Notes: generated by a model not told the origin, from the sequence alone. A stretch of DNA of 64,000 nucleotides from Antedon mediterranea (GCF_964355755.1 NC_092677.1:3618101-3682100), one strand, 5' to 3'. Shown: positions 1 to 25,146, counted from the stretch's first letter. Numbers and translations are program-made.

Positions 1-847
1 ATCAATCAATGTTAAAGGATGAGGAAAATATAATGTTAACAGTAAAAAGTTAGTAAGTAATTAGTATAACAGAGAATATGCATTGTTTAAATGAAAATAT
101 GTTTGCATAGATAAATCCAAAGAAAAATAAAATGGGACAAACCCATGGGATGGATTTATTAAACATAAACGTATTATAATTATATGAAATAAATATGCAT
201 GTAGATGAAAAAAAAAAACAAAAACAACTATGTAAGAAAAAATAAGCTTTGTTAATGAAAATGTGTTATAGATAATATGTATAAAAAGAGGAAACTATGT
301 AATCAATGTGGTTAAATGATAATGTATGTATAAACAAAATAATATATGGAAATAGTTTTTTTTTTAAAGAAAATAAGTAAAAAAAAAAAAAAGTGGAATG
401 AATCCACATAAGAGAAGAAAGTAAAAAAGTTAAATGAAAATTTAAGAAGTTATAGATGCAAAAAAGGATCTGCTGGTTTTGTAAACATTAAAGAACAAAA
501 ATATTAACATTAATGTTAAAGGATGAGAACAATATTATGTTAACAGTAAACATGTAGTAAGTAATGAGTATAACAGAGAATATGCATTGTTAAATGAAAA
601 TGTGGTAGATGAAAAAATCAAAAACAACTATGTAAGAAAAAAAAAAAGCTTGTTAATGAAAATGTGTTACAGATAATATGTTTAATCAATGTGATAATAT
701 GTAAACAAATGAATAAATAAGTATATGTATACAGATGATTAAACAAACATTGTAAATATAATGATATGTATAGTGTATAGTGAAAAATATATGTAAAGAG
801 AACAGTGGTTTGGAAATAAAAGTGGGATGAACCCACATAAGATAAAA
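1..847 (+). mobile_element. 3' UTR of an L1/Tx1-like non-LTR retrotransposon (second copy of 26437-27315; runs off the window start)
   Basis: Near-identical to 26437-27315. Ends at the same GGGATGAACCCACATAAGATAAAA motif that precedes the poly(A) tail in the other copy. Confidence 0.75.
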
Positions 848-3800
848 CTAGATTTGAACTCGTCACTACGGACGAGTTAGGTTATCCGCAGTGCAAAAGC
901 CACGTGCACGTCATACGTTAGAATAGTGCGCGCAAAAAAATAAAACGATTATGGCATTGAAAAATGTTAGTGCGCTCTCTATGTTGCGTCGCGTCTAAGT
1001 ATATACGGTATAACACTATATACTGTATACGTACTACATACAGTGCAGAATAGGTGAAAATAAGTGACCAAAGTTATTGACGCATTTGAATATGATGACG
1101 TCATCACAATTTTTAAAATGGTGGATCATGCGAAAGGTAATTGATTGATCTAGACAATATAAAAAAATTGAGTGAAATGGAATAAGGATAAGTAGAGATG
1201 CGCTCTATTAAATTGACGAGCTATGACGAAAGAGAAAAAAATCCTATATTTTATATTCGGGTGGCCATACGATGACGTCACAATGTCTGGTTAGCCATAT
1301 CAATGCATGATTCGAGAAAAACAACTCATCTACTTCCAGAATCTGAAATTTTAAATATTTTCACCTCGGAGTTTAGAATCTATGACTGTTTTAAAAAAGG
1401 CATAATTTTGACGAATTTTTGAACTTTTTCTTCAAAAACGCGCGCAAATTGTTCAATTCTACGTGCTCGTATGACGTGATTTTAAGTCGAAATTGATTGA
1501 AAATTGGTAAATGTACTAGAAAAGGCTGAAAAAACAAAAATCAAGCAAAAAAAAGATGTTTTTGCGCTACGTGCGCACGCGCGCGTAAAAAAATTGCGCA
1601 CGTGTGGGAATTTTTGAAATGCTCAAAATGACATGAAACGCATAGAAAGTTGATTAGAAATTGATTTTTCGCATTTTGAAATTTCAAACGCGCGTGCGCG
1701 CGTAACTTTTTGTGAAACATGCCATTTTTAATCCATAGAAAGTTTGCGCATGATCTCACTTAAATTTTCACAAAGTTTCAATACAAAACAACTTTTAGTT
1801 TTTATTCTATGATCAATCATTGAAATTCATAAAATCGCGCGTAACTTACGCTGCGCAACTCCAAAATCGTCCAAAAGCTTGGCTGCACATCTACAGCTAT
1901 AGGTCAACCTTATGACAAAGTTATACAATCTTATGTTGGCCACAAGATAGAGATGTGCTGCGAACAAAATTCGGGGAAAGAAAGAAGAATAACATAGAAA
2001 CTAGATTTGAACTCGTCACTACGGACGAGTTAGGTTATCCGCATCGCAAAACCCACGCGCATGACACCTAAGTTAGAATATTGCGCGCAGAAAAACGATT
2101 ATGCCATTGAAAAAATGTTAGTGAGCCCTCTATTTTGTGTCGCATCTAAGTGTGTACGGTATACACTATATACTGTATACGTACTACATACAGTGCAGAA
2201 TAGGTGAAAATAAGTGACCAAAGTTATTGACGCATTTGAACATGATGACGTCATCACAACTTTAAAAATGGTGAATCATGCGAAAGATAATTGATTGATC
2301 TAGACAATATAAAAAAATTGAGTGAAATGGAATAAAGATAAGTAGAGATGCGCTCTATTAAATTGACGAGCTATGACGAAAGAGAAAAAAATCCTATATT
2401 TTATATTCGGGTGGCCATACGGTGACGTCACAATGTCCGGTTAGCCATATCAATGCATGATTTGAGAAAAACAACTCATCTACTTCCAGAATATGTAATT
2501 TTAAAAAAGTTCACCACGTAGTTTAGAATTTATGACTGTTTAAAAAAAGGTCTAATTTTGACGAATTTTTGAAGTTTTTCATCAAAAACACGCGCAAATT
2601 ATCCAATTCTACGTGCTCGTGTGACGTGATTTTAAGTCGAAATTGTTTGAAAAGTTGATAAAATTACTAGAAAAGACTGAAAAAAACATAAATCAAGAAA
2701 AAAACAAACATTTTGCGCAACGTGCGCACGCGCGCGTAAAAAAATTGCGCATGCGTGGGAATTTATGAAATGCTCAAAATGACATGAAACGCGTAGAAAG
2801 TTGATTAGAAATTGATTTTTCGCATTTTGAATTTTTAAACGCGCGTGCGCGCGTAACTTTCTGTTAAACATGCCATTTTTAATCCATAGAAAGTTTGCGA
2901 TTGATATAACTAAAATTTTCACCAAGTTTCAATACAAAATGAGTTTTGGTTTTTAATCTATGATCAATCATTGAAATTCATAAAATCGCGCGTAACTTAC
3001 AATGCGCGACTAAAAATTTAGAAAATAAAGTTTCTTGCACATCTACAGCTACAGGGCAATGTTTTGACAAAGTTATACAATCATATGGTGGCCAGAATTA
3101 GAGATACGCTGCGAACAAAATTCGTGGAAAGAAAGAAGAACATAGACTAGACATGTAACTCGTCACTTTGACGAGTTTGGTTATCCGCCGCGCAAGTGGT
3201 GCAACATTAACATTAAGGGGATAGGTTGAGGACAAAAGGAAGTGTTCACGTTGGCATTATGACCTGAACTGAAGAATATGATATGTTGTTATTGCTGAAT
3301 TTTATCTATATATAAATTCATATATAGTATACACAGTATAATCTGTATCCATATCACATACAGTGTAGAATAGGTGAAATTACGGGACCCGCTATTTATT
3401 GCAATTTTTAACATGTTGACGGTTTTAAAATGAAACGGGAAGGTAGCAATTCCGAAAGGAAATTATCTCAGCAACAACGTATTAGCGTGTAGAAGAAATT
3501 TGAATACGTGAAATATTGATGCGCGCTCTTTTAAATGTAATGAATTATGACGCAAAAGATGAAAATACGACCTTTTTTATTTAACTGGCCATATGATGAC
3601 GTCACAACATCCGATTGGCAACATTTTTACATAATTTCGTATCTACAATCCAATAGCTTCCAGAAAAAGTTTTAATCGTGATTATCAAGTTTTATTCTTA
3701 CGAGCTATAACAGATTAAAATTTACTGTAAAGATGAAATTGATGCCACACGTGATTACAATTTTTAGGCATGATGACGTCAAAAAAATTAAAATATTTTT

Positions 3801-4716
3801 AACTCATGCGAAAGATACTTGATTGACCTAGACAAAATCAAAATCGGGGTGAAAATGGAAAACGGATAAGTGGAGATGCGCTCTATTCAATGTGATGAGC
3901 TATGACGAAAGATACAAAAATCCTAAATTTTATATTCACGTGGCCATACGATGACGTCACAATGTCCGGTTAGCCATATTAATACCTGATCCGATATCTA
4001 CAACTCATCTACTTCCAGAATATGCCATCCACAAAAAGTTGACCGTCTAGTTTAGAAATTACGACTGTTTAAAAAAAGGCATATTTTAAACGAATTTTTT
4101 AACCTTTTCATAAAAAACGCGCGCAAATTGTCCAATTCGACGTGCTCGTATGACGTATCTTTAAGTCGAAATTGTTTAAAATTTGGTAAAATTACTAGAA
4201 AAGGCTGGAAAAATATAAATCACGTGAAAAAAGTACGTTTTCAATACTACGTGCGCACCCCACACGTAAAAATGTGCGCACGCGTGGGAATTTTTGACAT
4301 GCTTAAAACGACATGAAACGCGTAGAAAGTTGATTATAAATTAATTTTGCGCATTTTGAAATTTTAAATGCGCGTGCGCGCGTAACTTTATGTAAAACAC
4401 GCAATTTTTTTTCAACAGAAAGTTAGCGCATGATAAAAATTAAACTTTTGCAAAGTTTCAAGTTGAAATGTTATTTGGTTGTCGAGCTATGTTAAATACG
4501 ACAAAATCGTTAAATCGCGCGTAAGTCACGTTGCGCAATTGTAAAAGTCATGAAAAGCTTCGCTTGACGACGTTACGTAAATGTCAATATGTTAAGATAG
4601 TTACCGAAATGTTATGTTTGCGAGTTTTAGAGAAAAGCGTTACACAAAAATCATACAGGTTGATTTCGTACAATCACAAGAGGTTATCCTGCAACTTCGT
4701 TGCGGATAACCAAAAA

Positions 4717-4747
<31 letters not shown>

Positions 4748-7700
4748 GATCCTGACAATAACAAGGGGTTATCCGCCAAGTGCGGATAACCAACTAGATT
4801 TGAACTCGTCACTACGGACGAGTTAGGTTATCCGCAGTCCTAAAGCCACGTGCACGTCATACGTTGGTGGAATATTGCGCGCAGAAAAACGATTATGCCA
4901 TTGAAAAAATGTGAGTGCGCTCTCTATTCTGTGTCACGTCAAAGTGTATACGGTATACACTATATACCGTATACGTACTACATACAGTTCAGAATAGGTG
5001 AAAATAAGTGACCAAAGTTATTGACGGTTTTGGACATGATGACGTCATCACAATTTTTAAAATGGTGAATCGTGCGAAAGATAATTGATAGACCTAGACA
5101 ATATAAAAAAAATGGAGGGAAATGGAATACAAATAAGTGAAGATGCGCTATATTAAATGTGACGAGCTACGAGGAAAGAGACAAAAATCCTATATTTTAT
5201 ATTCGAGTGGCCATATGATGACGTCACAATGTCCGGTTAGCCATATTGATGCATGATTTGATATCTGCAACTCATCTACTACCAGAATATGTAATTATAA
5301 AAAAGTTCACCACGTAGTTTAGAATTTATGACTGTTTAAAAAAAGGCATAATTTTGACTAATTTTTGAACTTTTTCATCAAAAATGCGCGTAAATTGTTT
5401 AATTCTACGTGCTCGTATGACGTGATTTTAGGTCGAAATTGTTTGAAAGTTGGTAAATTTTCTAAAAAAGACAGGAAAAACAAAAAACAAGCAAAAAAAT
5501 GATGTTTTTGCGCTACGTGCGCACGTGCGCGTAAAAAAATTGCGCACGCGTGGGAATTTTTGAAATGCTCAAAATGACATGAAACGCGTAGAAAGTTGAT
5601 TAGATATTGATTTTTCGCATTTTGAAATTTTAAACGCGCGTGCGCGCGTAACTTTTTGTAAAACATGCCATTTTTAATCCATAGAAAGTTTGCGCATTAT
5701 ATGATTTAAATGTTCACCAAGTTTCAATACAAAATGAATTTTAGTTTTTAATCTATGATCAATCATTGAAATTCATAAAATCGCGCGTAACTTACGCTGC
5801 GCAACTCCGAAATCGTCCAAAAGCTTGGCTGCACATCTACAGCTACAGGTCAATCTTATGACAAAGTTATACAATGTTATATTTGCCAGAATTAGAGATA
5901 TGCGACCAACAAAATTCGTGGAAAGAAAGAAGAACAAAGAACTAGATTTGAACTCGTCACTTCGGACGAGTTAGGTTATCCGCAGCGCAAAGGCCACGGC
6001 ACCAAAGGCCACGAAACATCATACGTTAGAATATTGCGCAAAGAAAAACGATTATGCCATTGAAACAATTTCAGTGTGCTCTCTATTTTGTGTCCCGTCT
6101 AAGTATATACAGTATACACTATATCCTGTATACGTACTACATACAGTGCAGAATAGGTGAAAATAAGTGACCAAAGTTATTAACGCTTTTGAACATGATG
6201 ACGTCATCACAATTTTAAAAATGGTGAATCATGCGAAAGATAATCGATTGACCTAGACAATAATAAAAAAATTGAGGGAATTGGAATACGAATAAAGGAG
6301 ATGCCCTCTATTAAATGTGACGAGCTATGACGAAAGAGACAAAATCCTATATTTCATATTCGAGTGGCCATACGATGACGTCACAATGTCTGGTTAGCCA
6401 TATCGATGCATGATTCGATATCTACACCTCATCTAATTCCAGAATGTGTAATTTAAAAAAAGTTCACCTCGTAGTTTAGAATCTATGACTTTTTAAAAAA
6501 AGGCATAAATTTCACAAATTTTTGAACTTTTTCATCAAAAACGCGCGCAAATTGTTCAATTCTACGTGCTCGTATGACGTGATTTTAAGTCGAAATTGAT
6601 TGAAAATTGGTAAATTTACTAGAAAAGGCTGGAAAAACCAAAATCAAGGAAAAATTGATGTTTTTGCGCTACGTGCGCACGCGCGCGTAAGAAAAGTGCG
6701 CACTTGTTGGGATTTTTGATATGCTCAAAATGACATGAAACGCATAGAAAGTTGGTTAGAAATTGATTTTTCGCATTTTGAAATTTTAAACGCGCGTGCG
6801 CGCGTAACTTTTTGTAAAACTTGCCATTTTTAATCTACAGAAAGTTTGCGATTTATATGACTTAAATTTTTACCAAGTTTCAATACAAAATGACTTTTGG
6901 TTTTTAATCTATGATCAATAATTGAAATTCATAAAATCGTGCGTAACTTACGCTGCGCGACTCGAAATTTGAAAAAAAAAGTTTCTTGCACATCTACAGA
7001 TATAGGGCAATCTTTTGACAAAGTTTCACAATCTTCTGTTGGCTAGAATTAGAGATACGCTGCCCACAAAAAATGGGAGAGAAGTGTGGAAAGAAAGAAA
7101 TAAATACTAGATTTGAACTCGTCACTACGTACGAGTTAGGTTATCCGCAGCGCAAAAGCCACGCGCACGATATAAGTTAGAAAATGTTAGTGTGCTCTCT
7201 ATTTTGCGTCACGTCTGAGTATAAACGGTATACACTATATACTGTATACGTACTACATACAGTGCAGAATAGGTGAAAATAAGTGACCAAAGTTATTGAC
7301 GCGTTTGGACATGATGACGTCATAACAATTTTAAAAATGGTGAATCATTCTAAAGATAATTGATTAACCTAGGCAATATATAAAAATGGGGGGAAATGGA
7401 ATACGGATAAGTGGAGATGCGCTCTATTAAATGTGATGAGCTTTGACGAAAGAGACAAAAATCCTATATTTTATATTCGTGTGGCCATACGATGACGTCA
7501 CAATGTCCGGTTAGCCAAATCGATGCATGATTCTATATCTACAACTCATCTACATTCAGAATATGTAATTTAAAAAAAATTCACCACGTAGTTTAGAATC
7601 TATGACTGTTTAAATAAAGGCATAATTTGTACAAATTTTTGAACTTTTTCATCAAAAATGCGCGTAAATTGTTTAATTCTACGTGCTCGTATGATGTGAT

Positions 7701-10520
7701 TTTAAGTCGAAATTGTTTGAAAGTTGGTAAATTTACTAAAAAAGACAGGAAAAACAAAAATCAAGCAAAAAAATGATGTTTTTGCTCTACATGCGCACGC
7801 GCGCGTAAAAAAATTGCGCACGCGTGGGAATTTTTGAAATGCTCAAAATGACATGAAACGCGTAGAAAGTTCATTAGAAATTGATTTTTTGCATTTTTTA
7901 ATTTTAAACGCGCGTGCGCGCGTAACTTTCTGTAAAACATGCCATTTTCTCTCCATAGAAAGTTAGCGCATGATATGACTTAAATTTTCACCAAGTTTCA
8001 ATACAAAATGATATATAGTTTTTATTCTATGATCAATCATTGAAATTCATAAAATCGCGCGTAACTTACGCTGCGCGACTCAAAATTCATAAAAAAAAGT
8101 TTCTTGCACATCTACAGCTACAGGGCAATCTTTTGACAAATTTATACAATCATATGTTGGCCAGAATTAGAGATACGCTGCCAACAAAAAATGGGAGAGA
8201 AGTGTATAAAGAAAGAAATAAATACTAGATTTGAACTCGTCACTACGGACGAGTTAGGTTATCCGCAGCGCAAAGGCCACGTGCACGTCATACGTTAAAA
8301 CATTGCGCGCAGAAAAACGATTAAGTAATTGAAACAATTTCAGCGTGCTCTTTATTTTTCGTCACGTCTGAGTATATACGGTATACAGTATATACTGTAT
8401 ACGTACTACATACAGTGCAGAATAGGTGAAAATAAGTGACCAAAGTTATTGACGCTTTTGAATATGATGACGTCATCACAATTTTTAAAATGGTGAATCG
8501 TGCGAAAGATAATTGATAGACCTAGACAACATAAAAAAAATGGGGGGAAATGGAATACAAATAAGTGGAGATGCGCTATATTAAATGTGACGAGCTACGA
8601 GGAAAGAGAAAAAAATCCTATATTTTATATTCAAGTGGCCATATGATGACGTCACATTGTCCGGTTAGCCATATTGATGCATGATTTGATATCTGCAACT
8701 CATCTACTACCAGAATATGTAATTATAAAAAAGTTCACCACGTAGTTTAGAATTTATGACTGTTTAAAAAAAGGCATAATTTTGACTAATTTTTGAACTT
8801 TTTCATCAAAAATGCGCGTAAATTGTTTAATTCTACGTGCTCGTATGACGTGATTTTTAGTCGAAATTGTTTGAAAGTTGGTACATTTTCTAAAAAAGAC
8901 ATGAAAAACAAAAATCAAGCAAAAAAATGATGTTTTTGCGCTACGTGCGCACGTGCGCGTAAAAAAATTGCGCACGCGTGGGAATTTTTGAAATGCTTAA
9001 AATGACATGAAACGCGTAGAAAGTTGATTAGATATTGATTTTTCGCATTTTGAAATTTTAAACGCGCATGCGCGCGTAACTTTTTGTAAAACATGCCATT
9101 TTTAATCCATAGAAAGTTTGCGCATTATATGACTTAAATTTTCACCAAGTTTCAATACAAAATGAATTTTAGTTTTTAATCTATGATCAATAATTGAAAT
9201 TCATAAAATCGCGCGTAACTTACGCTGCGCGACTCAAAATTTGAAAAAAAAAGTTTCTTGCACATCTACAGATATAGGCCAATCTTTTGACAAAGTTATA
9301 CAATCTTCTGTTGGCTAGAATTAGAGATACGCTGCCCACAAAAAATGGGAGAGAAGTGTGTAAAGAAAGAAATAAATACTAGATTTGAACTCGTCACTAC
9401 GGACGAGTTAGGTTATCCGCAGTCCTATAGCCACGTGCACGTCATACGTTGGAATATTGCGCGCAGAAAAACGATTATGCCATTGAAAAAATGTGAGTGC
9501 GCTCTCTATTTTGTGTCACGTCAAGTGTATACGGTATACACTATATACCGTATACGTACTACATACAGTTCAGAATAGGTGAAAATAAGTGACCAAAGTT
9601 ATTGACGCTTTTGCACATGATGACGTCATAACAATTTTTAAAATGGTGAATCATGCGAAAGATAATTGATTGACATAGACAATATAAAGAAATTGAGGGC
9701 AATGGAATACGGATAAGTGGAGATGCGCTCTATTAAATGTGATGAGCTATACGAAAGAAAAAAAAATCCTATATTTTATATTCGAGTGGCCATACGATGA
9801 CGTCACAATGTCCTGATAGCCATATTGATACATGATTCGATATCTACAACTCATCTACTACCAGAATATGTAATTATAAAAAAGTTTACCACGTAGTTTA
9901 GAATCTATGACTGTTTAAAAAAAGGCATAATTTTGACAAATTTTTGGACTTTTTCATCAAAATTGCGCGCAAATTGTTTAATTCTACGTGCTCGTATGAC
10001 GAGATTTTAAGGCAAAATTGATTGAAAATTGGTAAATATATTATAAAAGACAGAAAAAACAAAAATCAAGCAAAAAAAAGATGTTTTTGCGCTACGTGCG
10101 CACGCGCGCGTAAAAAAATTGCGCAAGCCTGGGAATTTTTGAAATGCTCAAAATGATATGAAACGCGTAGAAAATTGATTAGAAGTTGGTTTTTTGCATT
10201 TTGAAATTTTAAACGCGCGTGCGCGCGTAACTTTCTGTGAAACATGCAATTTTTAATCCATAGAAAGTTTGCGCTTGATATGACTTAAATTTTCACAAAG
10301 TTTCAATACAAAATAACTTTCGGTTTTTAATCTATGATCAATCATTTAAATTCATAAAATCGCGCGTAACTTACGCTGCGCAACTCAAAATTCATAAAAA
10401 AAAGTTTCTTGCACATCTACAGCAACAGGGCAATCTTTTGACAAAGTTATACAATCATATGTTGGCCAGAGTTAGAGATACGCTGCGAACAAAATTCGTG
10501 GAAAGAAAGAAGAACATAGA

Positions 10521-10551
<31 letters not shown>

Positions 10552-13500
10552 GATCCTGACAATAACAAGAGGTTATCCGCCAAGTGCGGATAACCAACTA
10601 GATTTGAACTCGTCACTACGGACGAGTTAGGTTATCCGCAGCGCAAAGGCCACGTGCACGTCATACGTTAAAATATTGCGCCCAGAAAAACGATTAAGTC
10701 ATTGAAACAATTTCAGTGTGCTCTCTATTTTTCGTCACGTCTGGGTATATACGGTATACACTATATACTGTATACGTACTACATACAGTGCAGAATAGGT
10801 GAAAATAAGTGACCAAAGTTATTGACGCTTTTGGACATGATGACGTCATAAAAATTTTAAAAATGGTAAATCTTTCGAAAGATAATTGATTGACCTAGGC
10901 AATATATAAAAATGGGGGAAAATGGAATACGGATAAGTGGAGATGCGCTCTATTAAATGTGATGAGCTATGACGAAAGAGACAAAAATCCTATATTTGAT
11001 ATTCGTGTGGCCATACGATGACGTCACAATGTCCGGTTAGCCAAATCGATGCATGATTCTATATCTACAACTCATCTACATTCAGAATATGTAATTTTAA
11101 AAAAGTTCACCACGTAGTTTAGAATCTATGACTGTTTAAAAAAGGCATAATTTTGACTAATTTTTGAACTTTTTCATCAAAAATGCGCGTAAATTGTTTA
11201 ATTCTACGTGCTCGTATGACGTGATTTTTAGTCGAAATTGTTTGAAAGTTGGTAAATTTTCTAAAAAAGACATGAAAAACAAAAATCAAGCAAAAAAATG
11301 ATGTTTTTGCGCTACGTGCGCACGTGCGCGTAAAAAAAATTGCGCACGCGTGGGAATTTTTGAAATGCTTAAAATGACATGAAACGCGTAGAAAGTTGAT
11401 TAGATATTGATTTTTCGCATTTTGAAATTTTAAACGCGCATGCGCACGTAACTTTTTGTAAAACATGCCATTTTTAATCCATAGAAAGTTTGCGCATTAT
11501 ATGACTTAAATTTTCACCAAGTTTCAATACAAAATGAATTTTAGTTTTTAATCTATGATCAATAATTGAAATTCATAAAATCACGCGTAACTTACGCTGC
11601 GCGACTCGAAATTTGAAAAAAAAAGTTTCTTGCACATCTACAGATATAGGGCAATCTTTTGACAAAGTTATACAATCTTCTGTTGGCTAGAATTAGAGAT
11701 ACGCTGCCCACAAAAAATGGGAGAGAAGTGTGTAAAGAAAGAAATAAATACTAGATTTGAACTCGTCACTACGGACGAGTTAGGTTATCCGCAGTGCAAA
11801 AGCCACGTGCACGTCATACGTTAGAATAGTGCGCGCGAAAAAATAAAACGATTATGGCATTGAAAAATGTTAGTGCGCTCTCTATGTTGCGTCGCGTCTA
11901 AGTATATACGGTATAACACTATATACTGTATACGTACTACATACAGTGCAGAATAGGTGAAAATAAGTGACCAAAGTTATTGACGCATTTGAACATGATG
12001 ACGTCATCACAATTTTTAAAATGGTGGATCATGCGAAAGGTAATTGATTGATCTAGACAATATAAAAAAATTGAGTGAAATGGAATAAGAATAAGTAGAG
12101 ATGCGCTCTATTAAATTGACGAGCTATGACGAAAGAGAAAAAAATCCTATATTTTATATTCGGGTGGCCATACGATGACCTCACAATGTCTGGTTAGCCA
12201 TATCAATGCATGATTCGAGAAAAACAACTCATCTACTTCCAGAATCTGAAATTTTAAATATTTTCACCTTGGAGTTTAGAATCTATGACTTTTTAAAAAA
12301 AGGCATAATTTTCACAAATTTTTGAACTTTTTCATCAAAAACGCGCGCAAATTGTTCAATTCTACGTGCTCGTATGACGTGATTTTAAGTCGAAATTGAT
12401 TGAAAATTGGTAAATGTACTAGAAAAGGCTGAAAAAACAAAAATCAAGCAAAAAAAATATGTTTTTGCGCTACGTGCGCACGCGCGCGTAAAAAATATGC
12501 GCACGCGTGGGAATTTTTGAAATGCTCAAAATGACCTGAAACGCGTAGAAAGTTGATTAGAATGGAATTTTTCGCAATTTGAAATTTTAAACGCGCGTGC
12601 GCGCGTAACTTTATGTCAAACATGCCATTTTTAATCCATAGAAAGTTTGCCCTTGATATGACTTAAATGTTCACCAAGTGTCATTACAAAATGACTTTTG
12701 CTTTTTAGTCTATGTTAAATACGCGAAATTCATAAAATCGCGCGTAGCTTACGCTGCGCGACTCTAAAGTAAAAAAACGAGCTGTCCTGCACTTCTACAC
12801 ATAGAGGTAAATCTTCTGACAAAGTTATACGATGTAATGTTGATCAGAATTTGAGATACACGTGACACAAAATTTTGGGAAAGAAAGAAGAATAACATAG
12901 AAAAAACTAGATTTGAACTCGTCACTACGGACGAGTTAGGTTATCCGCAGCGCAAAAGCCACGTGCACGTCATACGTTAGAATATTGCGCGCAGAAAAAC
13001 GATTATGCCATTGAAAAAAATGTGAGTGCGCCCTCTATTTTGTGTCACGTCTAAGTATATACGGTATACACTATATACTGTATACGTACGACATACAGTG
13101 CAGAATAGGTGAAAATAAGTGACCAAAGTTATTGACGGTTTTGGACATGATGACGTCATAACAATTTTAAAAATGGTGAATCAATCGAAAGATAATTGAT
13201 TGACCTAGACAATATATAAAAATGGGGGAAAATGGAATACGGATAAGTGGAGATGCGCTCTATTAAATGTGATGAGCTATGACGAAAGAAACAAAAATCC
13301 TATATTTGATATTCGTGTGGCCATACGATGACGTCACAATGTCCGGTTAGCCAAATCGATGCATGATTCGATATCTACAACTCATCTACATTTAGAATAT
13401 GTAATTTTAAAAAAGTTCACTACGTAGTTTAGAATCTATGACTGTTTAAAAAAAGGCATAATTTTGACAAATTTTTGAACTTTTTCATCAAAAATGCGCG

Positions 13501-16500
13501 TAAATTATTTATTTCTACGTGCTCGTATGACGTGATTTTAAGTTGAAATTGTTTGAAAGTTGGTAAATTTACTAGAAAAGGCTGAAAAAACAAAAATCAA
13601 GCAAAAAAAAGATGTTTTTGCGCTACGTGCGCATGCGCGCGTAAAAAATATGCGCACGCGTGGGAATTTTTGAAATGCTCAAAATGACCTGAAACGCGTA
13701 GAAAGTTGATTAGAAATGGATTTTTCGCAATTTGAAATTTTAAACGCGCGTGCGCGCGTAACTTTATGTCAAACATGCCATTTTTAATCCATAGAAAGTT
13801 TGCACTTGATATGACTTAAATGTTCACCAAGTGTCATTACAAAATGACTTTTGCTTTTTAGTGTATGTTAAATACGCGAAATTCATAAAATCGCGCGTAG
13901 CTTACGCTGCGCGACTCTAAAGTAAAAAAACGAGCTGTCCTGCACTTCTACAGATAGAGGTAAATCTTCTGACAAAGTTATACGATGTAATGTTGATCAG
14001 AATTTGAGATACACGTGACACAAAATTTTGGGAAAGAAAGAAGAATAACATAGAAAAAAAAAAAAAAAAAAAAGATCCTGACAATAACAAGAGGTTATCC
14101 GCCAAGTGCGGATAACCAAAAAAAAAAGATCCTGACAATAACAAGAGGTTATCCGCCAAGTGCGGATAACCAACTAGATTTGAACTCGTCACTTCGGACG
14201 AGTTAGGTTATCCGCAGCGCAAAGGCCACGTGCACGTCATACGTTAGAATATTGCGCGCAGAAAAACGATTACGCCATTGAAATAATGTTAGTGCTCTCT
14301 CTATTTTGCGTCACGTCAAAGTATATACGGTATACACCATATTCTGTATACGTACTACATACAGTGCAGAATAGGTGACAATAAGGGACCCAAGTTATTG
14401 ACGTTTTTGGACATGATGACGTCATCACAATTTAAAAAATGGTAGATTATGCGAAAGATAATTGATTGGCCTAGACAATATAACAAAATGGGGGGAAATG
14501 GAATACGGATAAGTGGCGATGCGCTCTATTAAATGTGATGAGCTATGCGAAAGAGACAAAAATGCTATATTTTATATTCGAGTGGCCATACGATGACGTC
14601 ACAATGTCCGGTTAGCCATATCGATGCATGATTTGATATTTACAACTCATCTACTTCCAGAATCTGAAATTTTAAAAATTTTCACCTCGGAGTTTAGAAT
14701 CTATGACTTTTTAAAAAAAGGCATAATTTTCACGAATTTTTGAACTTTTTCATCAAAAACGCGCGCAAATTGTTCAATTCTACGTGCTCGTATGACGTGA
14801 TTTTAACTTGAAATTGTTTGAAAGTTGGTAAAATTACTAGAGAAGGTTGAAAAAACAAAAATCAAGCAAAAAAAACATGTTTTTGCCTTACGTGCGCACG
14901 CGCGCATAAAAAAAATGCGCACTCGTGGGAATTTTTGAAATGCTCAAAATGGCATGAAACGCGTAGAAAGTTGAATAGAAATGAATTTTGCGCATTTTGA
15001 AATTTTGAACGCGCGTGCGCGCGTAACTTTATGTAAAACATGCCATTTTTAATCCATAGAAAGTTTGCGCATGATATAACTTAAATTTTCACCAAGTTTC
15101 AATACAAAATGACTTTTCGTTTTTAATCTATGATCAATCATTGAAATTCATAAAATTGCGCGTAACTTACGCTGCGCAACTCGAAAATCAACAAACAAAG
15201 TTTCTTGCACATCTACAGATATAGGTCAATCTTATGACAAAGTTATTCAATCATTTGTTAGCCAGAATTAGAGATATGCGACCAACAAAATTCGTGGAAA
15301 GAAAGAAGAAAAAAGAAAAAAAAGAAAAAAAAAAAAAAGATCCTGACAATAACAAGGGGTTATCCGCCAAGAGCGGATAACCAACTAGATTTGAACTCGT
15401 CACTACGGACGAGTTAGGTTATCCGCAGAGCAAACGCCACGCGCACGTCATACGTTAGAATATTGCGCAGAGAAAACCATTATGCCATTGAAAAAATGTT
15501 AGTGCGCTCTCTATTTTACGTCACGTCTAAGTATACACAGTATACACTATATATTGTATACGTACTACATACAGTGAAGAATATGTGAAAATAAGTGGCC
15601 CAAGTTATTGACGCTTTTGGACATGATGACGTCATCACAATTTTTAAAACGGTATATCATGCGAAAGATAATTGATTGGCATAGACAATATAAAAAAATG
15701 GGGGGAAATGGAATTAGGATAAGTGGAGATGCGCTCTATTAAATGTGATGAGCTATGACGAAAGAGACAAAAATCCTATATTTTATATTTGAGTGGCCAT
15801 ACAATGACGTCACTATGTCCTGTTAGCCATATCGATGCATGATTCGATATCTACAACTCATCAACTTCCAGAATGTGTAATTTAAAAAAAGTTCACCTCG
15901 TAGTTTACAATCTATGACTGTTTTAAAAAAGGCATAATTTTCATGAATTTTTGAACTTTTTCATCAAAAACGCGCGTAAATTGTTCAATTCTACGTGCTC
16001 GTATGACGTGATTTTAAGTCGAAATTGTTTGAAAGTTGGTAAATTTACTAAAAAAGACAGGAAAAACAAAAATCAAGCAAAAAAAAGATGTTTTTGCGCT
16101 ACGTGCGCACGCGCGCGTAAAAAAATTGCGCACGCGTGGGAATTTTTGAAATGCTCAAAATGACCTGAAACGCGTAGAAAGTTGATTAGAAATTGAATTT
16201 TTGCCTTTTGAAATTTTAAACGCGCGTGCGCGCGTAACTTTTTAGAAAAGTGCCATTTTAAATCCATAGAAAGTTAGCGCATGATATAAATAACACTTTT
16301 GCCAAGTTTCAATTAAAATTGCTTTTTGGTTTTCAATCTATGTTAAATACGCAAAATTCACAAAATCGCGCGTAACTTACGCTGCGCGACTCTAAAGTCA
16401 AAAAACGAAACGTCCTGCACATCTACAGCTACAGGTCAATCTTATGAAAAAGTTACACAATCTTCTGTTTGCCAGAATTAGAGATACGCTGCCAACAAAA

Positions 16501-19500
16501 TTCAGGGAAAGAAAGAAGAATAACATAGAAAAAAAAAAAAAAAAAAAAAAAAAAAGATCCTGACAATAACAAGAGGTTATCCGCCAAGTGCGGATAACCA
16601 ACTAGATTTGAACTCGTCACTACGGACGAGTTAGGTTATCCGCAGTGCAAAAGCCACATGCACGTCATACGTTAGAATATTGCGCGCAAAAAAAAAACGA
16701 TTATGGCATTGAAAAATGTTAGTGCGCTCTCTATTTTGCGTCGCGTCTAAGTATATACGCTATAACACTATATACTGTATACGTACTACATACAGTGCAG
16801 AATAGGTGAAAATAAGTGACCAAAGTTATTGACGCATTTGAACATGATGACGTCATCACAATTTTTAAAATGGTGGATCATACAAAAAGATAATTGATTG
16901 ATCTAGACAATATAAAAAAATTGAGTGAAATGGAATAAGGATAAGTAGAGATGCGCTCTGTCAAATTGACGAGCTATGACGAAAGAGAAAAAAATCCTAT
17001 ATTTTATATTCGGGTGGCCATACGATGACGTCACAATGTCCGGTTAGCCATATCAATGCATGATTCAAGAAAAAAAACTCATCTACTTCCAGAATCTGAA
17101 ATTTTAAATATTTTCACCTTGGAGTTTAGAATCTATGACTTTTTAAAAAAAGGCATAATTTTCACAAATTTTTGAACTTTTTCATCAAAAACGCGCGCAA
17201 ATTGTTCAATTCTACGTGCTCGTATGACGTGATTTTAAGTCGAAATTGTTTGAAAGTTGGTAAAATTACTAGAGAAGGCTGAAAAAACAAAAATCAAGCA
17301 AAAAAAACATGTTTTTGCGCTACGTGCGCACGCGCGCGTAAAAAAATTGCGTACGCGTGGGAATTTTTGAAATGCTCAAAATGACATGAAACGCATAGAA
17401 AGTTGATTAGAAATTGATTTTTCGCATTTTGAAATTTTAAACGCGCGTGCGCGCGTAACTTTTTGTAAAACCTGCCATTTTTAATCCATAGAAAGTTTGC
17501 GCATGATATGACTTAAATTTTCACCAAGTTTCAATACAAAATGACTTTTGGTTTTTAATCTATGATAAATCATTGAAATTCATAAAATCGCGCGTAACTT
17601 ACGCTGCGTAACTCCGAAATCGTCCAAAAGCTTGGCTGCACATCTACAGCTATAGGTAAATATTATGACAAAGTTATACAATCTTATGTTGGCCAGAATT
17701 AGAGATATACGACCAACAAAAATCGTGGAAAGAAAGAAGAACATAGAAAAAAAAAAAAAAAAAAAAAAAAAAAGATCCTGACAATAACAAGAGGTTATCC
17801 GCCAAGTGCGGATAACCAACTAGATTTGAACTCGTCACTACGGACGAGTTAGGTTATCCGCAGCGCAAAGGCCACGTGCACGTCATACATTAAAATATTG
17901 CGCGCAGAAAAACGATTAAGTCATTGAAACAATTTCAGTGTGCTCTCTATTTTTCGTCACGTCTGAATATATACGGTATACGCTATATACTGTATACGTA
18001 CTACATACAGTGCAGAATAGGTGAAAATAAGTGACCAAAGTTATTGACGCTTTTGAACGTGATGACGTCATCACAATTTTGAAAATGGTGAATCGTGCGA
18101 AAGATAATTGATAGACCTAGACAACATAAAAAAATGGGGGAAATGGAATACAAATAAGGGGAGATGCGCTATATTAAATGTGACGAGCTACGAGGAAAGA
18201 GACAAAAATCCTATATTTTATATTCGAGTAGCCACACGATGACGTCACAATGTCCGGTTAGCCATATTGATGCCTGATTTGATATCTGCAACTCATCTAC
18301 TATCAGAATATGTAATTATAAAAAAGTTCACCACGTAGTTTAGAATCTATGACTGTTTAAAAAAAGGCATAATTTTGACAAATTTTTGAACTTTTTCATC
18401 AAAAACGCGCGCAAATTATCCAATTCTACGTGCTCGTGTGACGTGATTTAAAGTCGAAATTGATTGAAAATTTATAAATTTACTAGAAAAGGCTGAAAAA
18501 ACAAAAAACAAGCAAAAAAAGGATGTTTTTGCGCTACGTGCGCACGCGCGCGTAAAAAAATTGCGCACGCGTGGGAATTTTTGAAATGCTCAAAATGACA
18601 TGAAACGCGTAGAAAGTTGATTAGAAATTGATTTTTCGCATTTTGAAATTTTAAACGCGCGTGCGCGCGTAACTTTTTGTAAAACATGCTATTTTTAATC
18701 CATAGAAAGTTTGCGCATGATATGACTTAAATTTTCACCAAGTTTCAATACAAAATGACTTTTAGTTTTTATTCTATGATCAATCATTGAAATTCACAAA
18801 ATCGCGCGTAACTTACGCTGCGCGACTCGAAATTTGAAAATAAAAGTTTCTTGCACATCTACAGCTACATATCAATCTTATGAAAAAGTTATACAATCAT
18901 ATGTTGCCCAAAATTAGAGATATGCGACCAACAAAATTCGTGGAAAGAAAGAAGAAAATAGAAAAAACTAGATTTGAACTCGTCACTACGGACGAGTTAG
19001 GTTATCCGCATCGCAAAACCCACGCGCATGACACCTAAGTTAGAATATTGCGCGCAGAAAAACGATTATGCCATTGAAAAAATGTTAGTGAGCCCTCTAT
19101 TTTGTGTCGCGTCTAAGTGTGTACGGTATACACTATATACTGTATACGTACTACATACAGTGCAGAATAGGTGAAAATAAGTGACCAAAGTTATTGACGC
19201 ATTTGAACATGATGACGTCATCACAATTTTAAAAATGGTGAATCATGCGAAAGATAATTGATTGATCTAGACAATATAAAAAAATTGAGTGAAATGGAAT
19301 ACGGATAAGTGAAGATGCGCTCTATTAAATTTGACGAGCTATGACGAAAGAGAAAAAATCCTATATTTTATATTCGGGTGGCCATACGATGATGTCACAA
19401 TGTCCGGTTAGCCATATCAATGCATGATTCGAGAAAAACAACTCATCTACTTCCAGAATATGTAATTTTAAAAAAGTTCACCACGTAGTTTAGAATTTAT

Positions 19501-22500
19501 GATTATTTAAAAAAAGGTCTAGTTTTGACGATTTTTTGAAGTTTTTCATCAAAAACACGCGCAAATTATCCAATTCTACGTGCTCGTGTGACGTGATTTT
19601 AAGTCGAAATTGATTGAAAATTCATAAATTTACTAGAAAAGGCTGAAAAAACAAAAATCATGCAAAAAAAAGATGTTTTTGCGCTACGTGCGCACGCGCG
19701 CGTAAAAAAAATTGCGCACGCGTGGGAATTTTTGAAATGCTCAAAATGACATGAAACGCATAGAAAGTTGATTAGAAATTGATTTTTCGCATTTTGAAAT
19801 TTCAAACGCGCGTGCGCGCGTAACTTTTTGTGAAACATGCCATTTTTAATCTATAGAAAGTTTGCGCATGATCTCACTTAAATTTTCACAAAGTTTCAAT
19901 ACAAAACAACTTTTAGTTTTTATTCTATGATCAATCATTGAAATTCATAAAATCGCGCGTAACTTACGCTGCGCAACTCCAAAATCGTCCAAAAGCTTGG
20001 CTGCACATCTACAGCTATAGGTCAACCTTATGACAAAGTTATACAATCTTATGTTGGCCACAAGATAGAGATATGCTGCGAACAAAATTCGGGGAAAGAA
20101 AGAAGAATAACATAGACTAGACTTGAACTCGTCACTTCGGACGAGTTAGGTTATCCGCAGCGCAAAGGCCACGCGCACGCCACACGTCAGAATATTGCGC
20201 GCAGAAAAACGATTATGCCATTGAAAAAAAATTTAGTGCGCTCTCTATTTTGCGTCACGTATAAGTATATACGGTATACGCTATATACTGTATAGGTACT
20301 ACATACAGTGCAGAATAGGTGAAAATATGTGACCAAAGTTACTGACGCTTTTGTACATGATGACGTCATAGAAATTTCAAAAAATGTGAATCATGCGAAA
20401 GATAATTGATTGACCTAGACAATATAAAAAAATTGAGGGAAATGGAATACGGATAAGTGGAGATGCGCTTTATTAAATGTGACGAGCTATGACGAAAGAG
20501 AAAAAAATCCTATATTTTATATTCGAGTGGCCATACGATGACGTCATAATGTTCGGTTAGCCATATTCATGGATGATTTGATATCTACAACTCATCTACT
20601 TCCAGAATCTGTAATTTAAAAAAAGTTCACCACGTAGTTTATAATCTATGACTTTTTTAAAAAAGGCATAATTTTCACGAATTTTTGAACTTTTTCATCA
20701 AAAACGCGCGCAAATTTTTCAATTCTACGTGCTCGTATGACGTGATTTTAAGTCGAAATTGTTTGGAAGTTAGTAAATCTACTAAAAAAAGACAGGAAAA
20801 ACAAAAATCAAGCCAAAAAATGATGTTTTTGCGCTACGTGCGCACGCACGCGTAAAAAAATTGCGCACGCGTGGGAATTTTTGAAACGCTCAAAATGACA
20901 TGAAACGCGTAGAAAGTTGATTAGAAATTGATTTTTCGCATTTTGAAATTTTAAATGCGCGTGCGCGCGTAACTTTCTGCGCAACCTGCCATTTTTAATC
21001 CATAGAAAGTTTCCGATTAATATGACTTAAATTTTCACCAAGTTTCAAACCAAAATTACTTTTGGTTTTTAATCTATGATCAATCATTGAAATTCATAAA
21101 ATCGCGCGTAAGTTACGCTGCGCAACTCGGACTGGACCGAAAACCTTATTACGACATCTTCAGATAGAGGTCAATCTTCTGATAAAGTTATACAATGTTA
21201 TGTTAAGAAGATTTTGAGATACACGCGCAACAAAATTCTGGGAAAGAAAGAAGAAAAAAGAAAAAAAAGAAAAAAAAACTAGATTTGAACTCGTCACTTC
21301 GGACGAGTTAGGTTATCCGCAGCGCAAAAGCCACGCGCACGATATAAGTTAGAATATTGCGCGCAGAAAAACGATTATGCCATTGAAAAAAATGTTAGTG
21401 TGCCCTCTATTTTGTGTCACGTCTAAGTATATACGGTATACACTATATACTGTATACGTACTACATACAGTGCAGAAAAGGTGAAAAGAAGTGACCAAAG
21501 TTATTGACGCTTTTGGACATGATGACGTCATCACAATTTTAAAAACGATATATCATGCGAAAGATAATTCATTGGCCTAGACAATATGTAAAAATGGGGA
21601 GAAATGGAATACGGATAAGTGGAGATGCGCTCTATTAAATGTGATGAGCTATGACGAAAGAGACAAAAATCCTATATTTTATATTTGAGTGGCCATACGA
21701 TGACGTCACAATGTCCGGTTAGCTATATTGATGCATGATTCAATATCTACAACTCATCTACTTCCAGAATATGTAATTTAAAAAAAGTTCACTACGTTGT
21801 TTAGAATCTATGACTTTTTTAAAAAAGGCATAATTTTCACGAATTTTTAAACTTTTTCATCAAAAAGGCGCGCAAATTGTTCAATTCTACGTGCTCGTAT
21901 GACGTGATTTTAAGTCGAAATTGATTGAAAATTGGTAAATTTACTAGAAAAGGCTGGAAAAACAAAAATCAAGCAAAAAAAAGATGTTTTTGCGCTACGT
22001 GCGCACGCGCGCGTAAGAAAAGTGCGCACGCGTGGGAATTTTTGAAATGCTCAAAATGACATGAAACGCGTAGAAAGTTGATTAGAAATTGATTTTTCGC
22101 ATTTTGAAATTTTAAACGCGCGTGCGCGCGTAACTTTCTGTAAAACATGCAATTTTCTCTCCATAGAAATTTAGCGCATGATATAAATTAAACTTTTGCC
22201 AAGTTTCAATTTAAATGGTTTAATAGTTTTCGATCTAAATGACATTCTCGAAATTCATAAAATCGCGCGTAACTTACGCTGCGCAACTCGGACGGTACCG
22301 AAAACCTTATTACGACATCTTCAGATAGAGGTAAGTCTTTTGATAAAGTTATATAATGTTATGTTGTGAAGATTTAGAGATACACGCGCAACAAAATTCT
22401 GGGAAAGAAAGAAGAATAAGAAAGAAAAAAAAAAAAGATCCTGACAATAACAAGGGGTTATCCGCCAAGTGCGGATAACCAAAAAAAGAGAAAAAAAAAA

Positions 22501-25006
22501 AAGATCCTGACAATAACAAGAGGTTATCCGCCAAGTGCGGATAACCAAAAAGAAAAAGAAAAAAAAAAAAAAAAAAAAAAAGATCCTGACAATAACAAGG
22601 GGTTATCCGCCAAGTGCGGATAACCAACTAGATTTGAACTCGTCACTACGGACGAGTTAGGTTATCCGCATCGCAAAACCCACGCGCATGACACCTAAGT
22701 TAGAATATTGCGTGCAGAAAAACGATTATGCCATTGAAAAAATGTTAGTGAGCCCTCTATTTTGTGTCGCGTCTAAGTGTGTACGGTATACACTATATAC
22801 TGTATACGTACTACATACAGTGCAGAATAGGTGAAAATAAGTGACCAAAGTTATTGACGCATTTGAACATAATGACGTCATCACAATTTTAAAAATGGTA
22901 AATCATGCGAAAGATAATTGATTGATCTAGACAATATAAAAAAATTGAGTAAAATGGAATACGGATAAGTGGAGATGCGCTCTATTAAATTTGACGAGCT
23001 ATGACGAAAGAGAAAAAAATCCTATATTTTATATTCGGGTGGCCATACGATGACGTCACAATGTCCGGTTAGCCATATCAAGGCATGATTCGAGAAAAAC
23101 AACTCATCTACTTCCAGAATAAGTAATTTTAAAAAAGTTCACCTCGTAGTTTAGAATTTATTACTGTTTAAAAAAAGGTTTAATTTTGACGATTTTTTGA
23201 AGTTTTTCATCAAAAACACGCGCAAATTATCCAATTCTACGTGCTCGTGTGACGTGATTTTACGTCGAAATTGATTGAAAGTTGGTAAAATTACTAGAGA
23301 AGGCTGAAAAAACAAAAATCAAGCAAAAAAAAGATGTTTTTGCTATACGTGCGCACGCGCGCGTAAAAATATTGCGCACACGTGGGAATTTTTGAAATGC
23401 TCAAAATGACATGAAACGTATAGAAAGTTGATTAGAAATGAATTTTTCGCATTTTGAAATTTTGAACGCGCGTGCGCGCGTAACTTTTAAGGAAAGTGCC
23501 ATTTTAAATCCATAGAAAGTTAGCGCATGATATAAATTACACTTTTGCCAAGTTTCAATTAAAATTGCTTTTTCGTTTTCGATCTATGTTAAATACGCAA
23601 AATTCACAAAATCGCGCGTAACTCATGCTGCGGGACTCTAAAGTCAAAAAACGAAACGTCCTGCACATCTACAGCTACAGGTCAATCTTATGAAAAAGTT
23701 ACACAATCTTCTGTTTGCCAGAATTAGAGATACGCTGCCAACAAAATTCAGGGAAAGAAAGAAGAATAACATAGAAAAAAAAAAAAAAAAAAAAAAAAAA
23801 AGATCCTGACAATAACAAGGGGTTATCCGCCAAGTGCGGATAACCAAAAAAAAAAAAACTAGATTTGAACTCGTCACTACGGACGAGTTAGGTTATCCGC
23901 ATCGCAAAACCCACGCGCATGACACCTAAGTTAGAATATTGCGCGCAGAAAAACGATTATGCCATTGAAAAAATGTTAGTGAGCCCTCTATTTTGTGTCG
24001 CGTCTAAGTGTGTACGGTATACACTATATACTGTATACGTACTACATACAGTGCAGAATAGGTGAAAATAAGTGACCAAAGTTATTGACGCATTTGAACA
24101 TGATGACGTCATCACAATTTTAAAAATGGTGAATCATGCGAAAGATAATTGATTGATCTAGACAATATAAAAAAATTGAGTGAAATGGAATACAGATAAG
24201 TGGAGATGCGCTCTATTAAATTTGACGAGCTATGACAAAAGAGAAAAAAATCCTATATTTTATATTCGGGTGGCCATACGATGATGTCACAATGTCCGGT
24301 TAGCCATATCAATGCATGATTCGAGAAAAACAACTCATCTACTTCCAGAATATGTAATTTTAAAAAAGTTCACCACGTAGTTTAGAATTTATGACTGTTT
24401 AAAAAAAGGTCTAATTTTGACGATTTTTTGAAGTTTTTCATCAAAAACACGCGCAAATTATCCAATTCTACGTGCTCGTGTGACGTGATTTTCAGTCGAA
24501 ATTGATTGAAAATTCATAAATTTACTAGAAAAGGCTGAAAAAACAAAAATCAAGCAAAAAAAAGATGTTTTTGCGCTACGTGCGCACGCGCGCGTAAAAA
24601 AATTGCGCACGCGTGGGAATTTTTGAAATGCTCAAAATGACATGAAACGCATAGAAAGTTGATTAGAAATTGATTTTTCGCATTTTGAAATTTCAAACGC
24701 GCATGCGCGCGTAACTTTTTGTGAAACATGCCATTTTTAATCCATAAAAAGTTTGCGCATGATCTCACTTAAATTTTCACAAAGTTTCAATACAAAACAA
24801 CTTTTAGTTTTTATTCTATGATCAATCATTGAAATTCATGAAATCGCGCGTAACTTACACTGCGCAACTCCAAAATCGTCCAAAAGCTTGGCTGCACATC
24901 TACAGCTATAGGTCAACCTTATGACAAAGTTATACAATCTTATGTTGGCCACAAGATAGAGATGTGCTGCGAACAAAATTCGGGGAAAGAAAGAAGAATA
25001 ACATAG

Positions 25007-25040
<34 letters not shown>

Positions 25041-25146
25041 TCCTGACAATAACAAGGGGTTATCCGCCAAGTGCGGATAACCAAAAAAAAAAAAAAAAAA
25101 AAGATCCTGACAATAACAAGGGGTTATCCGCCAAGTGCGGATAACC
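848..25146 (-). mobile_element. Tandem and nested array of 20 non-autonomous Helentron/Helitron2-associated (HINE, DINE-1-like) elements, about 1.15-1.2 kb each
   Basis: On the minus strand a complete unit reads TT-GGTTATCCGC-ACTTG-GCGGATAACC (5' subterminal repeat hairpin), a short core, a T-tract, the body, then GCGGATAACC (3' subterminal repeat), the stem-loop AACTCGTC-CGTAGT-GACGAGTT and CAAATCTAG-T. No target-site duplications. The + strand CTAG ends lie at 848, 2001, 3147, 4794, 5942, 7107, 8225, 9379, 10598, 11751, 12907, 14174, 15385, 16602, 17820, 18968, 20117, 21279, 22628 and 23859. Confidence 0.85.
3147..4711 (-). mobile_element. Divergent, longer (1.56 kb) HINE family member nested in array unit 2
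   Basis: Has its own variant ends (CTAGACATGTAACTCGTCACTTTGACGAGTTTGGTTATCCGC ... GGTTATCCTGCAACTTCGTTGCGGATAACC). It splits the host motif GAAGAACATAGA^AAAA...GATCCTGAC, which is intact at 10510-10560. Confidence 0.85.

What the first reader, a model, noticed from the sequence alone, without database searches (positions are those of the whole stretch)
848..25146. Self-targeting 'Russian doll' Helentron array: 20 different elements stacked into each other's A/T tract
Seen: this is not a simple satellite. Many units stop inside their own A-tract (e.g. AACATAGAAA|CTAG at 2001, 12907, 18968, 20117, 21279). Their detached 44-bp terminal caps (GATCCTGACAATAACAAG(A/G)GGTTATCCGCCAAGTGCGGATAACC) reappear later in stacks: 4748; 14074+14128; 22437+22503+22582; 25039+25103. 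Ends parse like brackets: units 15-18 open and three caps close, units 19 and 20 open and close, then the last cap closes. Neighbouring units belong to different subfamilies. Established: Helentrons/HINEs insert at TT without a TSD. Inference: each element carries its own landing pad, so the locus grows by repeated insertion and stores an ordered record of family variants, like a cassette array, with the RepHel enzyme supplied in trans.
Basis: partly seen in the sequence, partly recalled or inferred. Interest (0 to 1): 0.85.

Follow-up and report, generated by a model that had tools for sequence, protein, structure and literature searches.

The report
Transposons landing on their own ends
A 24-kb stretch holds twenty related but different copies of a gene-less jumping element, some sitting inside one another and others joined end to end, likely because new copies land right beside the front end of older ones, a habit already known in outline for this transposon group.

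Summary
The array is real: 20 same-strand, non-coding units (19 of about 1.2 kb, one divergent 1.6-kb unit) and 14 caps at the stated places. On the minus strand they have Helitron2/HINE ends. All 19 internal junctions lie at two spots: 11 at a unit's tail tract, 8 just outside a cap; none lies in 22.9 kb of body. Seven of the 8 post-cap junctions are exactly cap-AA|CTAG between unlike neighbours. Short-read contigs show dispersed copies and suggest that roughly 0.2-0.4 of this family's caps abut another copy (rough). Nesting is direct for U2[U3], U10[U11] and U15[U16[U17[U18]]]. No RepHel partner or long reads could be checked. Self-insertion and abutting insertion are in print (Fusarium, maize, bat), and this scan noted similar nests before, in this genome and others. 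Verdict: new family showing a known behaviour at large scale.

The parts
848..25146 (-). Whole array: 20 non-autonomous Helitron2/HINE-type elements, all in one orientation (element 5' end = cap, on the minus strand)
10598..10640 (-). Example 3' terminus (U9): 11-bp subterminal inverted repeat, 8-bp hairpin stem, terminal CTAG
10552..10597 (-). Example 5' cap (U8): TT, then 10-bp-stem hairpin holding the 5' inverted repeat; -11.5 kcal/mol, z -6.3, 0 of 200 shuffles as stable
9379..10597 (-). Intact reference unit U8: body about 1.14 kb, 32-base A(T) tract, cap, AA
3147..4711 (-). Divergent unit U3 (1565 bp, about 80% to the others over 790 bp, own variant cap) nested in U2's tail
2001..4791 (-). 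Nest U2[U3] with 36-base tract remainder and displaced cap at 4748
11751..14171 (-). Nest U10[U11] with caps 14074 and 14128
17820..25146 (-). Nest U15[U16[U17[U18]] U19 U20] with caps 22437, 22503, 22582, 23802, 25039, 25103
5942..11750 (-). Cluster holding the four units (U5, U6, U7, U9) that end in AAATAAATA|CTAG and never receive a cap
14174..17819 (-). Three complete units (U12, U13, U14) joined end to end by exact cap-AA|CTAG junctions; 88-90% identical to their neighbours
4..847 (+). Left flank, duplicate of 26436-27315 (93.6% with gaps; 11 mismatches in 885 columns)
27283..27331 (+). Empty-site paralogue of the left insertion point (33 identical bases, then an A-rich run, no element)
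25147..25847 (+). Right flank: A13, then the 3' part of a LINE ORF with a zf-RVT domain

Best explanation
This is a stack of 20 gene-less rolling-circle-type (Helitron2/HINE) transposon copies that likely grew by repeated insertion of single copies at two spots beside the 5' hairpin of copies already there, and was likely reshuffled by recombination afterwards or beforehand. Shown: the end structure, the two spots (the T tract just inside the cap, 11 junctions; the boundary just outside it, 8 junctions, 7 of them exactly TT from the hairpin), several closed nests, mosaic bodies and six missing caps. Inferred: a RepHel enzyme from an autonomous partner acts in trans; insertion into the inner T tract pushes the host's cap away (cap stacks); insertion at the outer boundary makes a precise end-to-end join; each new copy brings both spots again, so growth feeds itself and keeps one orientation. 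Least certain: that the enzyme is drawn there by binding the resident hairpin, its own start signal, and not by the T run alone. The six missing caps were likely lost at the right edge or were never imported (read-through of a 3' end carrying a capless body along).
For: 0 of 19 internal junctions in 22,927 bases of body that hold 142 A runs of 6 or more and 3,454 AA steps. Exactly two A before CTAG at 7 of 8 post-cap sites against 1 of 12 other sites (Fisher P=0.0008). Divergent U3, complete, inside U2; rejoined U2 tail matches intact U8's G-plus-11-A ending; rejoined tracts of 14-35 bases against 20-32 in intact units (my sums from the strings). Four simple end-to-end pairs are 88.2-90.5% identical, like the 89.3% mean, while U16 and U20 are 98.8% identical, so whole-unit identity can survive. 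Tail similarity does not predict the next unit's head (Mantel r=-0.27, P=0.98, 17 junctions). Dispersed copies: 32, 15 and 28 contigs with unlike A-rich sequence before the start and 22, 6 and 25 after the cap in X1, X5, X6. Junction-spanning contigs in all three runs; junction-to-cap depth slope 0.41, 0.19, 0.36. Literature: self-insertion and multiple 5' termini in Fusarium (PMC5148889, section 16 and passages; PMC13342296, passages), abutting insertions in bats (PMC4778049, section 12).
Against: Six of 20 units unclosed; bracket order alone is met by 33% of random orders. Cap allele does not track tail type (nearest tail predicts it in 1 of 8 directly capped units; 3 of 5 bracket-assigned caps match). 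The four AAATAAATA units cluster (span of 5 in 20, P=0.013; pattern picked after seeing it), which points to a local copying process or an imported block. Adjacent U10/U11 share 420 of 428 tail columns, as local conversion would give. Within-unit linkage between adjacent 190-column windows is itself patchy (r from -0.04 to 0.48), so the junction test is weak. The body A runs are short (7-10), so a preference for long T runs alone could explain their neglect. Contigs elsewhere in the genome show copies joined inside bodies too (table 5). The depth ratio is rough, and array expansion elsewhere could inflate it. No autonomous partner found; no long reads.
Confidence: 0.62

Rival explanations
1. 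Same insertion history, but targeting is by T runs only: the enzyme prefers the 3' end of long T runs, and each copy happens to supply two; no recognition of the resident element.
For: Helitron2 elements insert after TTTT (PMC3627910, passages); HINEs prefer T-rich sites (PMC4067079, passages); dispersed flanks are A-rich; 6 of 12 non-cap sites leave a single A; body A runs never exceed 10.
Against: Offset is 2 at caps but 1 at most other sites (P=0.0008). The rest of the window has 18 runs of 10 or more A or T in 39.7 kb and none holds a copy; scaled to a genome of some hundreds of Mb (assumed; X1 holds 410 M letters of contigs) the few hundred element-linked runs would be under 1% of targets, against a junction share of roughly 0.2-0.4.
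Confidence: 0.14
2. Much of the array was imported in blocks: multi-cap elements (start at an outer cap, stop at the first 3' end) and capless-body composites (3' end bypass) formed elsewhere and were moved as units, so brackets here only partly reflect events at this locus.
For: Model proposed for Fusarium (PMC5148889 Fig. 7 legend) and maize (PMC3288121, passages); 3' bypass shown for Helraiser (PMC4778049, passages). Explains six unclosed units and the fourfold AAATAAATA junction.
Against: Each of the five extra caps is preceded by a tract-truncated body, and the U2 remainder fits its tail type. The heads that follow the four AAATAAATA junctions differ from about 45 bases in.
Confidence: 0.12
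3. Rolling-circle concatemers or homologous re-integration of joined-end circles made the end-to-end junctions; unequal exchange and conversion then scrambled the bodies (a TE-derived satellite).
For: The cap-AA|CTAG junction is what a joined-end circle would carry; circles are shown for Helraiser and FoHeli1; tandem arrays by rolling circle are reported in plants (review PMC12628747, passages). Mosaicism is strong (incompatibility 0.223 between near sites against 0.493 permuted, P=0.001, 258 sites).
Against: End-to-end neighbours are no more alike than random pairs; swapping heads and tails of the four simple pairs does not restore better-matching units (mean gain 1.5 against 6.3 for all 171 pairs, P=0.72; low power); array distance does not predict divergence (r=0.12, P=0.09) or shared tracts (r=-0.04). 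It does not explain U3 inside U2 or the mixed G-A-G triple cap stack.
Confidence: 0.09
4. The order of units is an assembly artefact.
For: No long reads were available; no listed contig spans the stretch; the best run holds 0.63 of sampled words of 18000-27900.
Against: Units differ by 1-15% and each is unique; the end-to-end junction is in short-read contigs of three samples; nests are internally consistent.
Confidence: 0.03

Closest known systems
Helitron2 / HLE2 non-autonomous elements; HINE and DINE-1 (Bao & Jurka 2013, PMC3627910; Thomas et al. 2014, PMC4067079; Li et al. 2024, PMC11417382; passages read)
   Same: 5' hairpin holding the 5' inverted repeat two bases from the end, 3' inverted repeat just upstream of a 3' hairpin, T-rich targets, no visible duplication, no coding capacity.
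   Different: New sequence family; 11-bp inverted repeat (inside the 8-15 bp of PMC3627910, just under the HELIANO setting of more than 11); a homopolymer tract behind the cap; no partner identified.
FoHeli self-insertion and multiple 5' termini in Fusarium oxysporum (Chellapan et al. 2016, PMC5148889, section 16 and passages; PMC13342296, passages)
   Same: Stacked 5' termini ascribed to self-insertion (up to five in PMC13342296); one copy inserted 2 bp upstream of another's 5' end.
   Different: There the nest was mostly inferred from stacked termini; here capless host bodies and displaced caps are both in place, in a 20-unit block, with seven exact end-to-end joins.
Abutting Helitron insertions in Myotis (Grabundzija et al. 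2016, PMC4778049, section 12) and nested, multi-terminus maize Helitrons (PMC3288121, passages)
   Same: 5' end of one element abuts the 3' end of another; preference for landing near or in other Helitrons.
   Different: Those are Helitron1 elements and a minority of copies; here the junction appears at a large share of caps (rough).
Tandem TE dimers by double insertion (McGurk & Barbash 2018, PMC5932611, passages) and TE-derived satellites (review PMC12628747, passages)
   Same: Site preference, not concatemer formation, makes tandems that can later expand.
   Different: That work rests on target duplications of other TE classes (the word Helitron has 0 hits in its text); here the landing site is carried by the element and no duplication is made.

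Membership tests
Helitron2 / HLE2 (HINE) | 5' inverted repeat 0-2 bp from the 5' end, forming a 5' hairpin | tested here: met
   TT then a 10-bp stem, z -6.3, 0 of 200 shuffles; U3 variant z -5.1
Helitron2 / HLE2 (HINE) | Short asymmetric inverted repeat (8-15 bp), 3' copy subterminal and just upstream of the 3' hairpin | tested here: met
   11 bp, ending 32 bases from the 3' end; pairs with the 5' copy in the junction fold
Helitron2 / HLE2 (HINE) | 3' hairpin near the end | tested here: met
   8-bp stem (z -2.0, 8 of 200 shuffles as stable); U3 9-bp stem with a changed loop (z -2.6, 2 of 200)
Helitron2 / HLE2 (HINE) | Insertion between T and T, no target-site duplication | tested here: met
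   All 20 starts follow an A and all 14 caps are followed by AA; one empty-site paralogue, for the left flank only; variable A numbers keep the exact ends uncertain
Helitron2 / HLE2 (HINE) | Non-coding, interspersed copies | tested here: met
   Longest Met-start frame in the array 115 aa; 0 Rfam matches in 1-27400; many unlike flanks in three runs
Helitron2 / HLE2 (HINE) | Autonomous partner encoding RepHel with the same termini | not testable with these tools
   No genome held; pattern scans of viral, metagenome and prokaryote collections gave 0, 0, 4 unrelated and 0 hits
Helentron in the strict sense | Partner RepHel fused to an endonuclease domain | not testable with these tools
   No partner available
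Classical satellite or rolling-circle concatemer | Neighbours most alike, or periodic higher order, constant junction | tested here: not met
   Adjacent 89.4% against 89.0% permuted, no lag peak; at least three junction kinds
Ordered cassette array (chronological record) | Complete pairing and age that follows position | tested here: not met
   6 of 20 unclosed; private changes against nesting depth r=0.01, P=0.96, 19 units; outermost U1 differs from U20 at 5 of 428 tail columns

The most novel reading that the evidence does not exclude
The RepHel of this family treats the 5' origin of a resident copy as an acceptor: it nicks at the resident's own start boundary and swaps strands with an incoming copy, a site-specific self-integration that puts about a third of all copies exactly end to end and turns a dispersed transposon family into mosaic satellite-like arrays without concatemers.
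Probability: 0.3. Interest if true: 0.65.

Novelty: new member of a known kind. Interest (0 to 1): 0.38.

Why it matters
How Helitron2/HLE2 elements pick targets appears untested biochemically (my recall; no such assay turned up). This locus separates two landing spots and gives a countable signature: the exact cap-AA|CTAG join between unlike copies. If resident ends act as acceptors, self-targeting is a route from dispersed transposons to satellite-like blocks and a way for a parasite to spare host genes. Practically, such blocks will be mis-annotated as 1.2-kb satellites. The behaviour is known in outline and has recurred in this scan, which limits surprise.

Tried and rejected
Whole-genome search: no genome held. 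Relatives or an autonomous partner by DNA pattern: 0 in viral contigs, 0 then 4 in metagenome contigs, 0 in prokaryote genomes; the 4 hits share only the short hairpin, have no body similarity and (L001, the one whose frames I listed) sit among bacterial-type genes, so I dropped them as chance hairpins. RNA gene array: 0 Rfam matches. Bracket parsing as proof: rejected (33% of random orders). Cap allele against tail type: uninformative. Head-tail swap test for circle re-integration: no signal for 4 simple end-to-end pairs (P=0.72) or 10 capless pairs (P=0.49); a third group of 6 pairs gave P=0.006, which I discount because U10 or U19 is in 9 of the 10 highest-gain pairs whatever the partner. 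Summed depth as copy number: my first reading (thousands of copies) was dropped because overlapping short contigs are summed; the slope method gives some 250 caps, roughly. Expression: no RNA holder listed; not evidence either way. What follows AAATAAATA in other copies: not among the rows shown (786 loose ends hidden). Sequence look-up in earlier findings: 0 look-alikes; nothing near. No supplements were read; they may hold more on nested HINEs.

Full report
Observation. The window holds, from 848 to 25146, 20 unit starts and 14 caps, all in one orientation. Nineteen units are 1118-1180 bases to the next landmark and 84.7-98.8% identical (mean 89.0%, 171 pairs); U3 (3147-4711) is a 1565-base relative at about 80% with its own variant cap. 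No other copy is in the window. The longest Met-start frame in the array is 115 aa and Rfam gives 0 matches in 1-27400.

What the unit is. Read on the minus strand a unit starts TT, then a 10-bp-stem hairpin (z -6.3, 0 of 200 shuffles), a short spacer, a T tract of 20-32 bases, about 1.13 kb of body, an 11-bp repeat complementary to the 5' arm, an 8-bp hairpin (z -2.0, 8 of 200) and CTAG. This matches the Helitron2 definition (PMC3627910, passages), HLE2 (PMC11417382, passages) and DINE-1/HINE (PMC4067079, abstract and passages). The 'cap' is thus the 5' end. All 20 starts follow an A and all 14 caps are followed by AA. The left flank (4-847) recurs at 26436-27315 without an element, giving an empty site with an A|A break and no duplication. 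The autonomous partner could not be sought: no genome is held, and four pattern scans gave nothing related.

Where copies sit. Of 19 internal junctions, 11 are at a unit's tail (7 in an A tract, 4 after AAATAAATA) and 8 follow a cap; none is in 22,927 bases of body with 142 A runs of 6 or more, the longest 10. After a cap the spacer is exactly AA in 7 of 8 cases, against 1 of 12 at other sites (Fisher P=0.0008).

Nesting. The cleanest case is U3, a different element with both its ends, inside U2; U2's tail plus the remainder ends in G and 11 A like intact U8. U10[U11] and U15[U16[U17[U18]] U19 U20] also close. The triple stack reads G, A, G at the variable cap base with unlike spacers, so it is no local duplication. 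Limits: six units never close; 33% of 100,000 random orders also never over-close; the cap allele is predicted by the nearest tail in only 1 of 8 directly capped units, so the 3 of 5 matches among bracket-assigned caps say little.

Not a simple satellite, not a clean record. Adjacent units average 89.4% against 89.0% permuted (P=0.18); the four simple end-to-end pairs are 88.2-90.5%. Yet bodies are mosaics: near sites are far more compatible than distant ones (0.223 against 0.493, P=0.001, 258 sites), and tracts of 400-700 columns at 1-2% divergence link different partners, such as U1 head with U10, U1 tail with U20, U10 tail with U11. Shared tracts do not depend on array distance (r=-0.04) and tail similarity does not carry across junctions (r=-0.27, P=0.98), which fits units moving as units, though within-unit linkage is patchy and the test weak. 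Signs of local remodelling exist: the four AAATAAATA units cluster (P=0.013, picked after seeing it) and U10/U11 are adjacent. Private changes do not track depth (r=0.01). The block looks young and fast-built, and its order is at best a partial history.

Genome context from reads. Thirteen runs hold part of 18000-27900; I laid 4 of them once and 3 of those again. All are short-read contigs; X1 may be the source sample. Loose ends with low agreement show many unlike A-rich flanks before the start (32, 15, 28 contigs in X1, X5, X6) and after cap-AA (22, 6, 25), so dispersed copies exist, also in organism B. Contigs spanning the end-to-end junction occur in all three. Treating the rise in summed depth per base as word depth, junction-only words reach 0.41, 0.19 and 0.36 of cap words. 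With single contigs near depth 300 in X1 (11 of 14 X1 joints shown lie at 274-330) that is some 250 caps and 100 junctions. The tool warns that depth is no copy number; X5 and X6 are noisy, and arrays amplified elsewhere could inflate the share. One search also shows a few joins inside bodies, so targeting is not absolute.

Mechanism. From Helraiser work (PMC4778049, passages and section 12) the 5' end is required, the 3' hairpin terminates and can be bypassed, and joined-end circles form; FoHeli1 circles are reported too (PMC5148889, passages). I infer that a partner RepHel inserts single copies at T|T beside resident 5' hairpins. Inner insertions displace caps; outer ones give the precise join; each copy renews both spots. 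That the hairpin itself attracts the enzyme is the least certain step: it rests on the fixed offset and on the high junction share against under 1% expected from T-run counts (18 long runs in 39.7 kb; genome size assumed). Missing caps may reflect loss at the right edge, where the flank is a LINE frame and not the partner of the left flank, or import of composites.

Comparison and novelty. Self-insertion with stacked 5' termini is proposed for Fusarium (PMC5148889 section 16; up to five termini in PMC13342296, passages), nesting for maize (PMC3288121, passages), abutting insertion for bats, and double insertion as a source of tandems for other TE classes (PMC5932611, passages). PMC7492417 (passages) describes oyster HINEs in T-rich sites with 0 hits for 'nested'. 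My searches listed no paper on a preserved animal HINE nest of this size; most subscription papers are outside the library and Xiong et al. 2016 was seen only through a review. This scan has noted similar nests at least three times in this genome and six times in others (unchecked notes, which also call the host a feather star; not tested here). What this locus adds is the second, exact end-to-end spot and a rough genome-wide share.

Verdict. Real; a new HINE family showing known self-insertion at large scale, partly remodelled. Interest 0.38.

Noticed in passing
window 848-25146: The units are rich in CpG (observed/expected 1.71 against 0.68 outside) and carry 1-3 perfect TGACGTCA palindromes each (38 in the array, 1 in the other 39.7 kb). 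This is the CRE/ATF site by my recall; the family could seed such sites.
   Followed up: partly
window 4-847 and 25147-27331: The array sits between two copies of the same LINE 3' region; the right copy begins inside a zf-RVT frame (Pfam E 5.8e-08). A short shared A-rich word at the two edges would fit a tandem duplication older than the array; unequal exchange between two arrays would fit too.
   Followed up: partly
window 27332-32633 (-): BEL/Pao-type LTR retroelement in several frames (Peptidase_A17 and rve hits) with 198-bp direct repeats at 27332-27529 and 32436-32633, 99% identical.
   Followed up: partly
window 32682-35174 and 41250-47517: Two unrelated satellites: 182-bp unit, 13.6 copies; 68-bp unit, 91.9 copies at 97%.
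   Followed up: no
window 51077-54212 (+): LINE with endonuclease and reverse transcriptase domains spread over three frames.
   Followed up: no
window 10569-10617, runs X1 and X5: One contig in each of two samples joins the first 20 bases of the start, through 33 other letters with an 11-A run, to a variant cap: a possible minimal element of about 90 bp (table 5c).
   Followed up: no
window 3523-3665 and 3878-4020: U3 carries an internal duplication at 73% identity, which accounts for part of its extra length.
   Followed up: no
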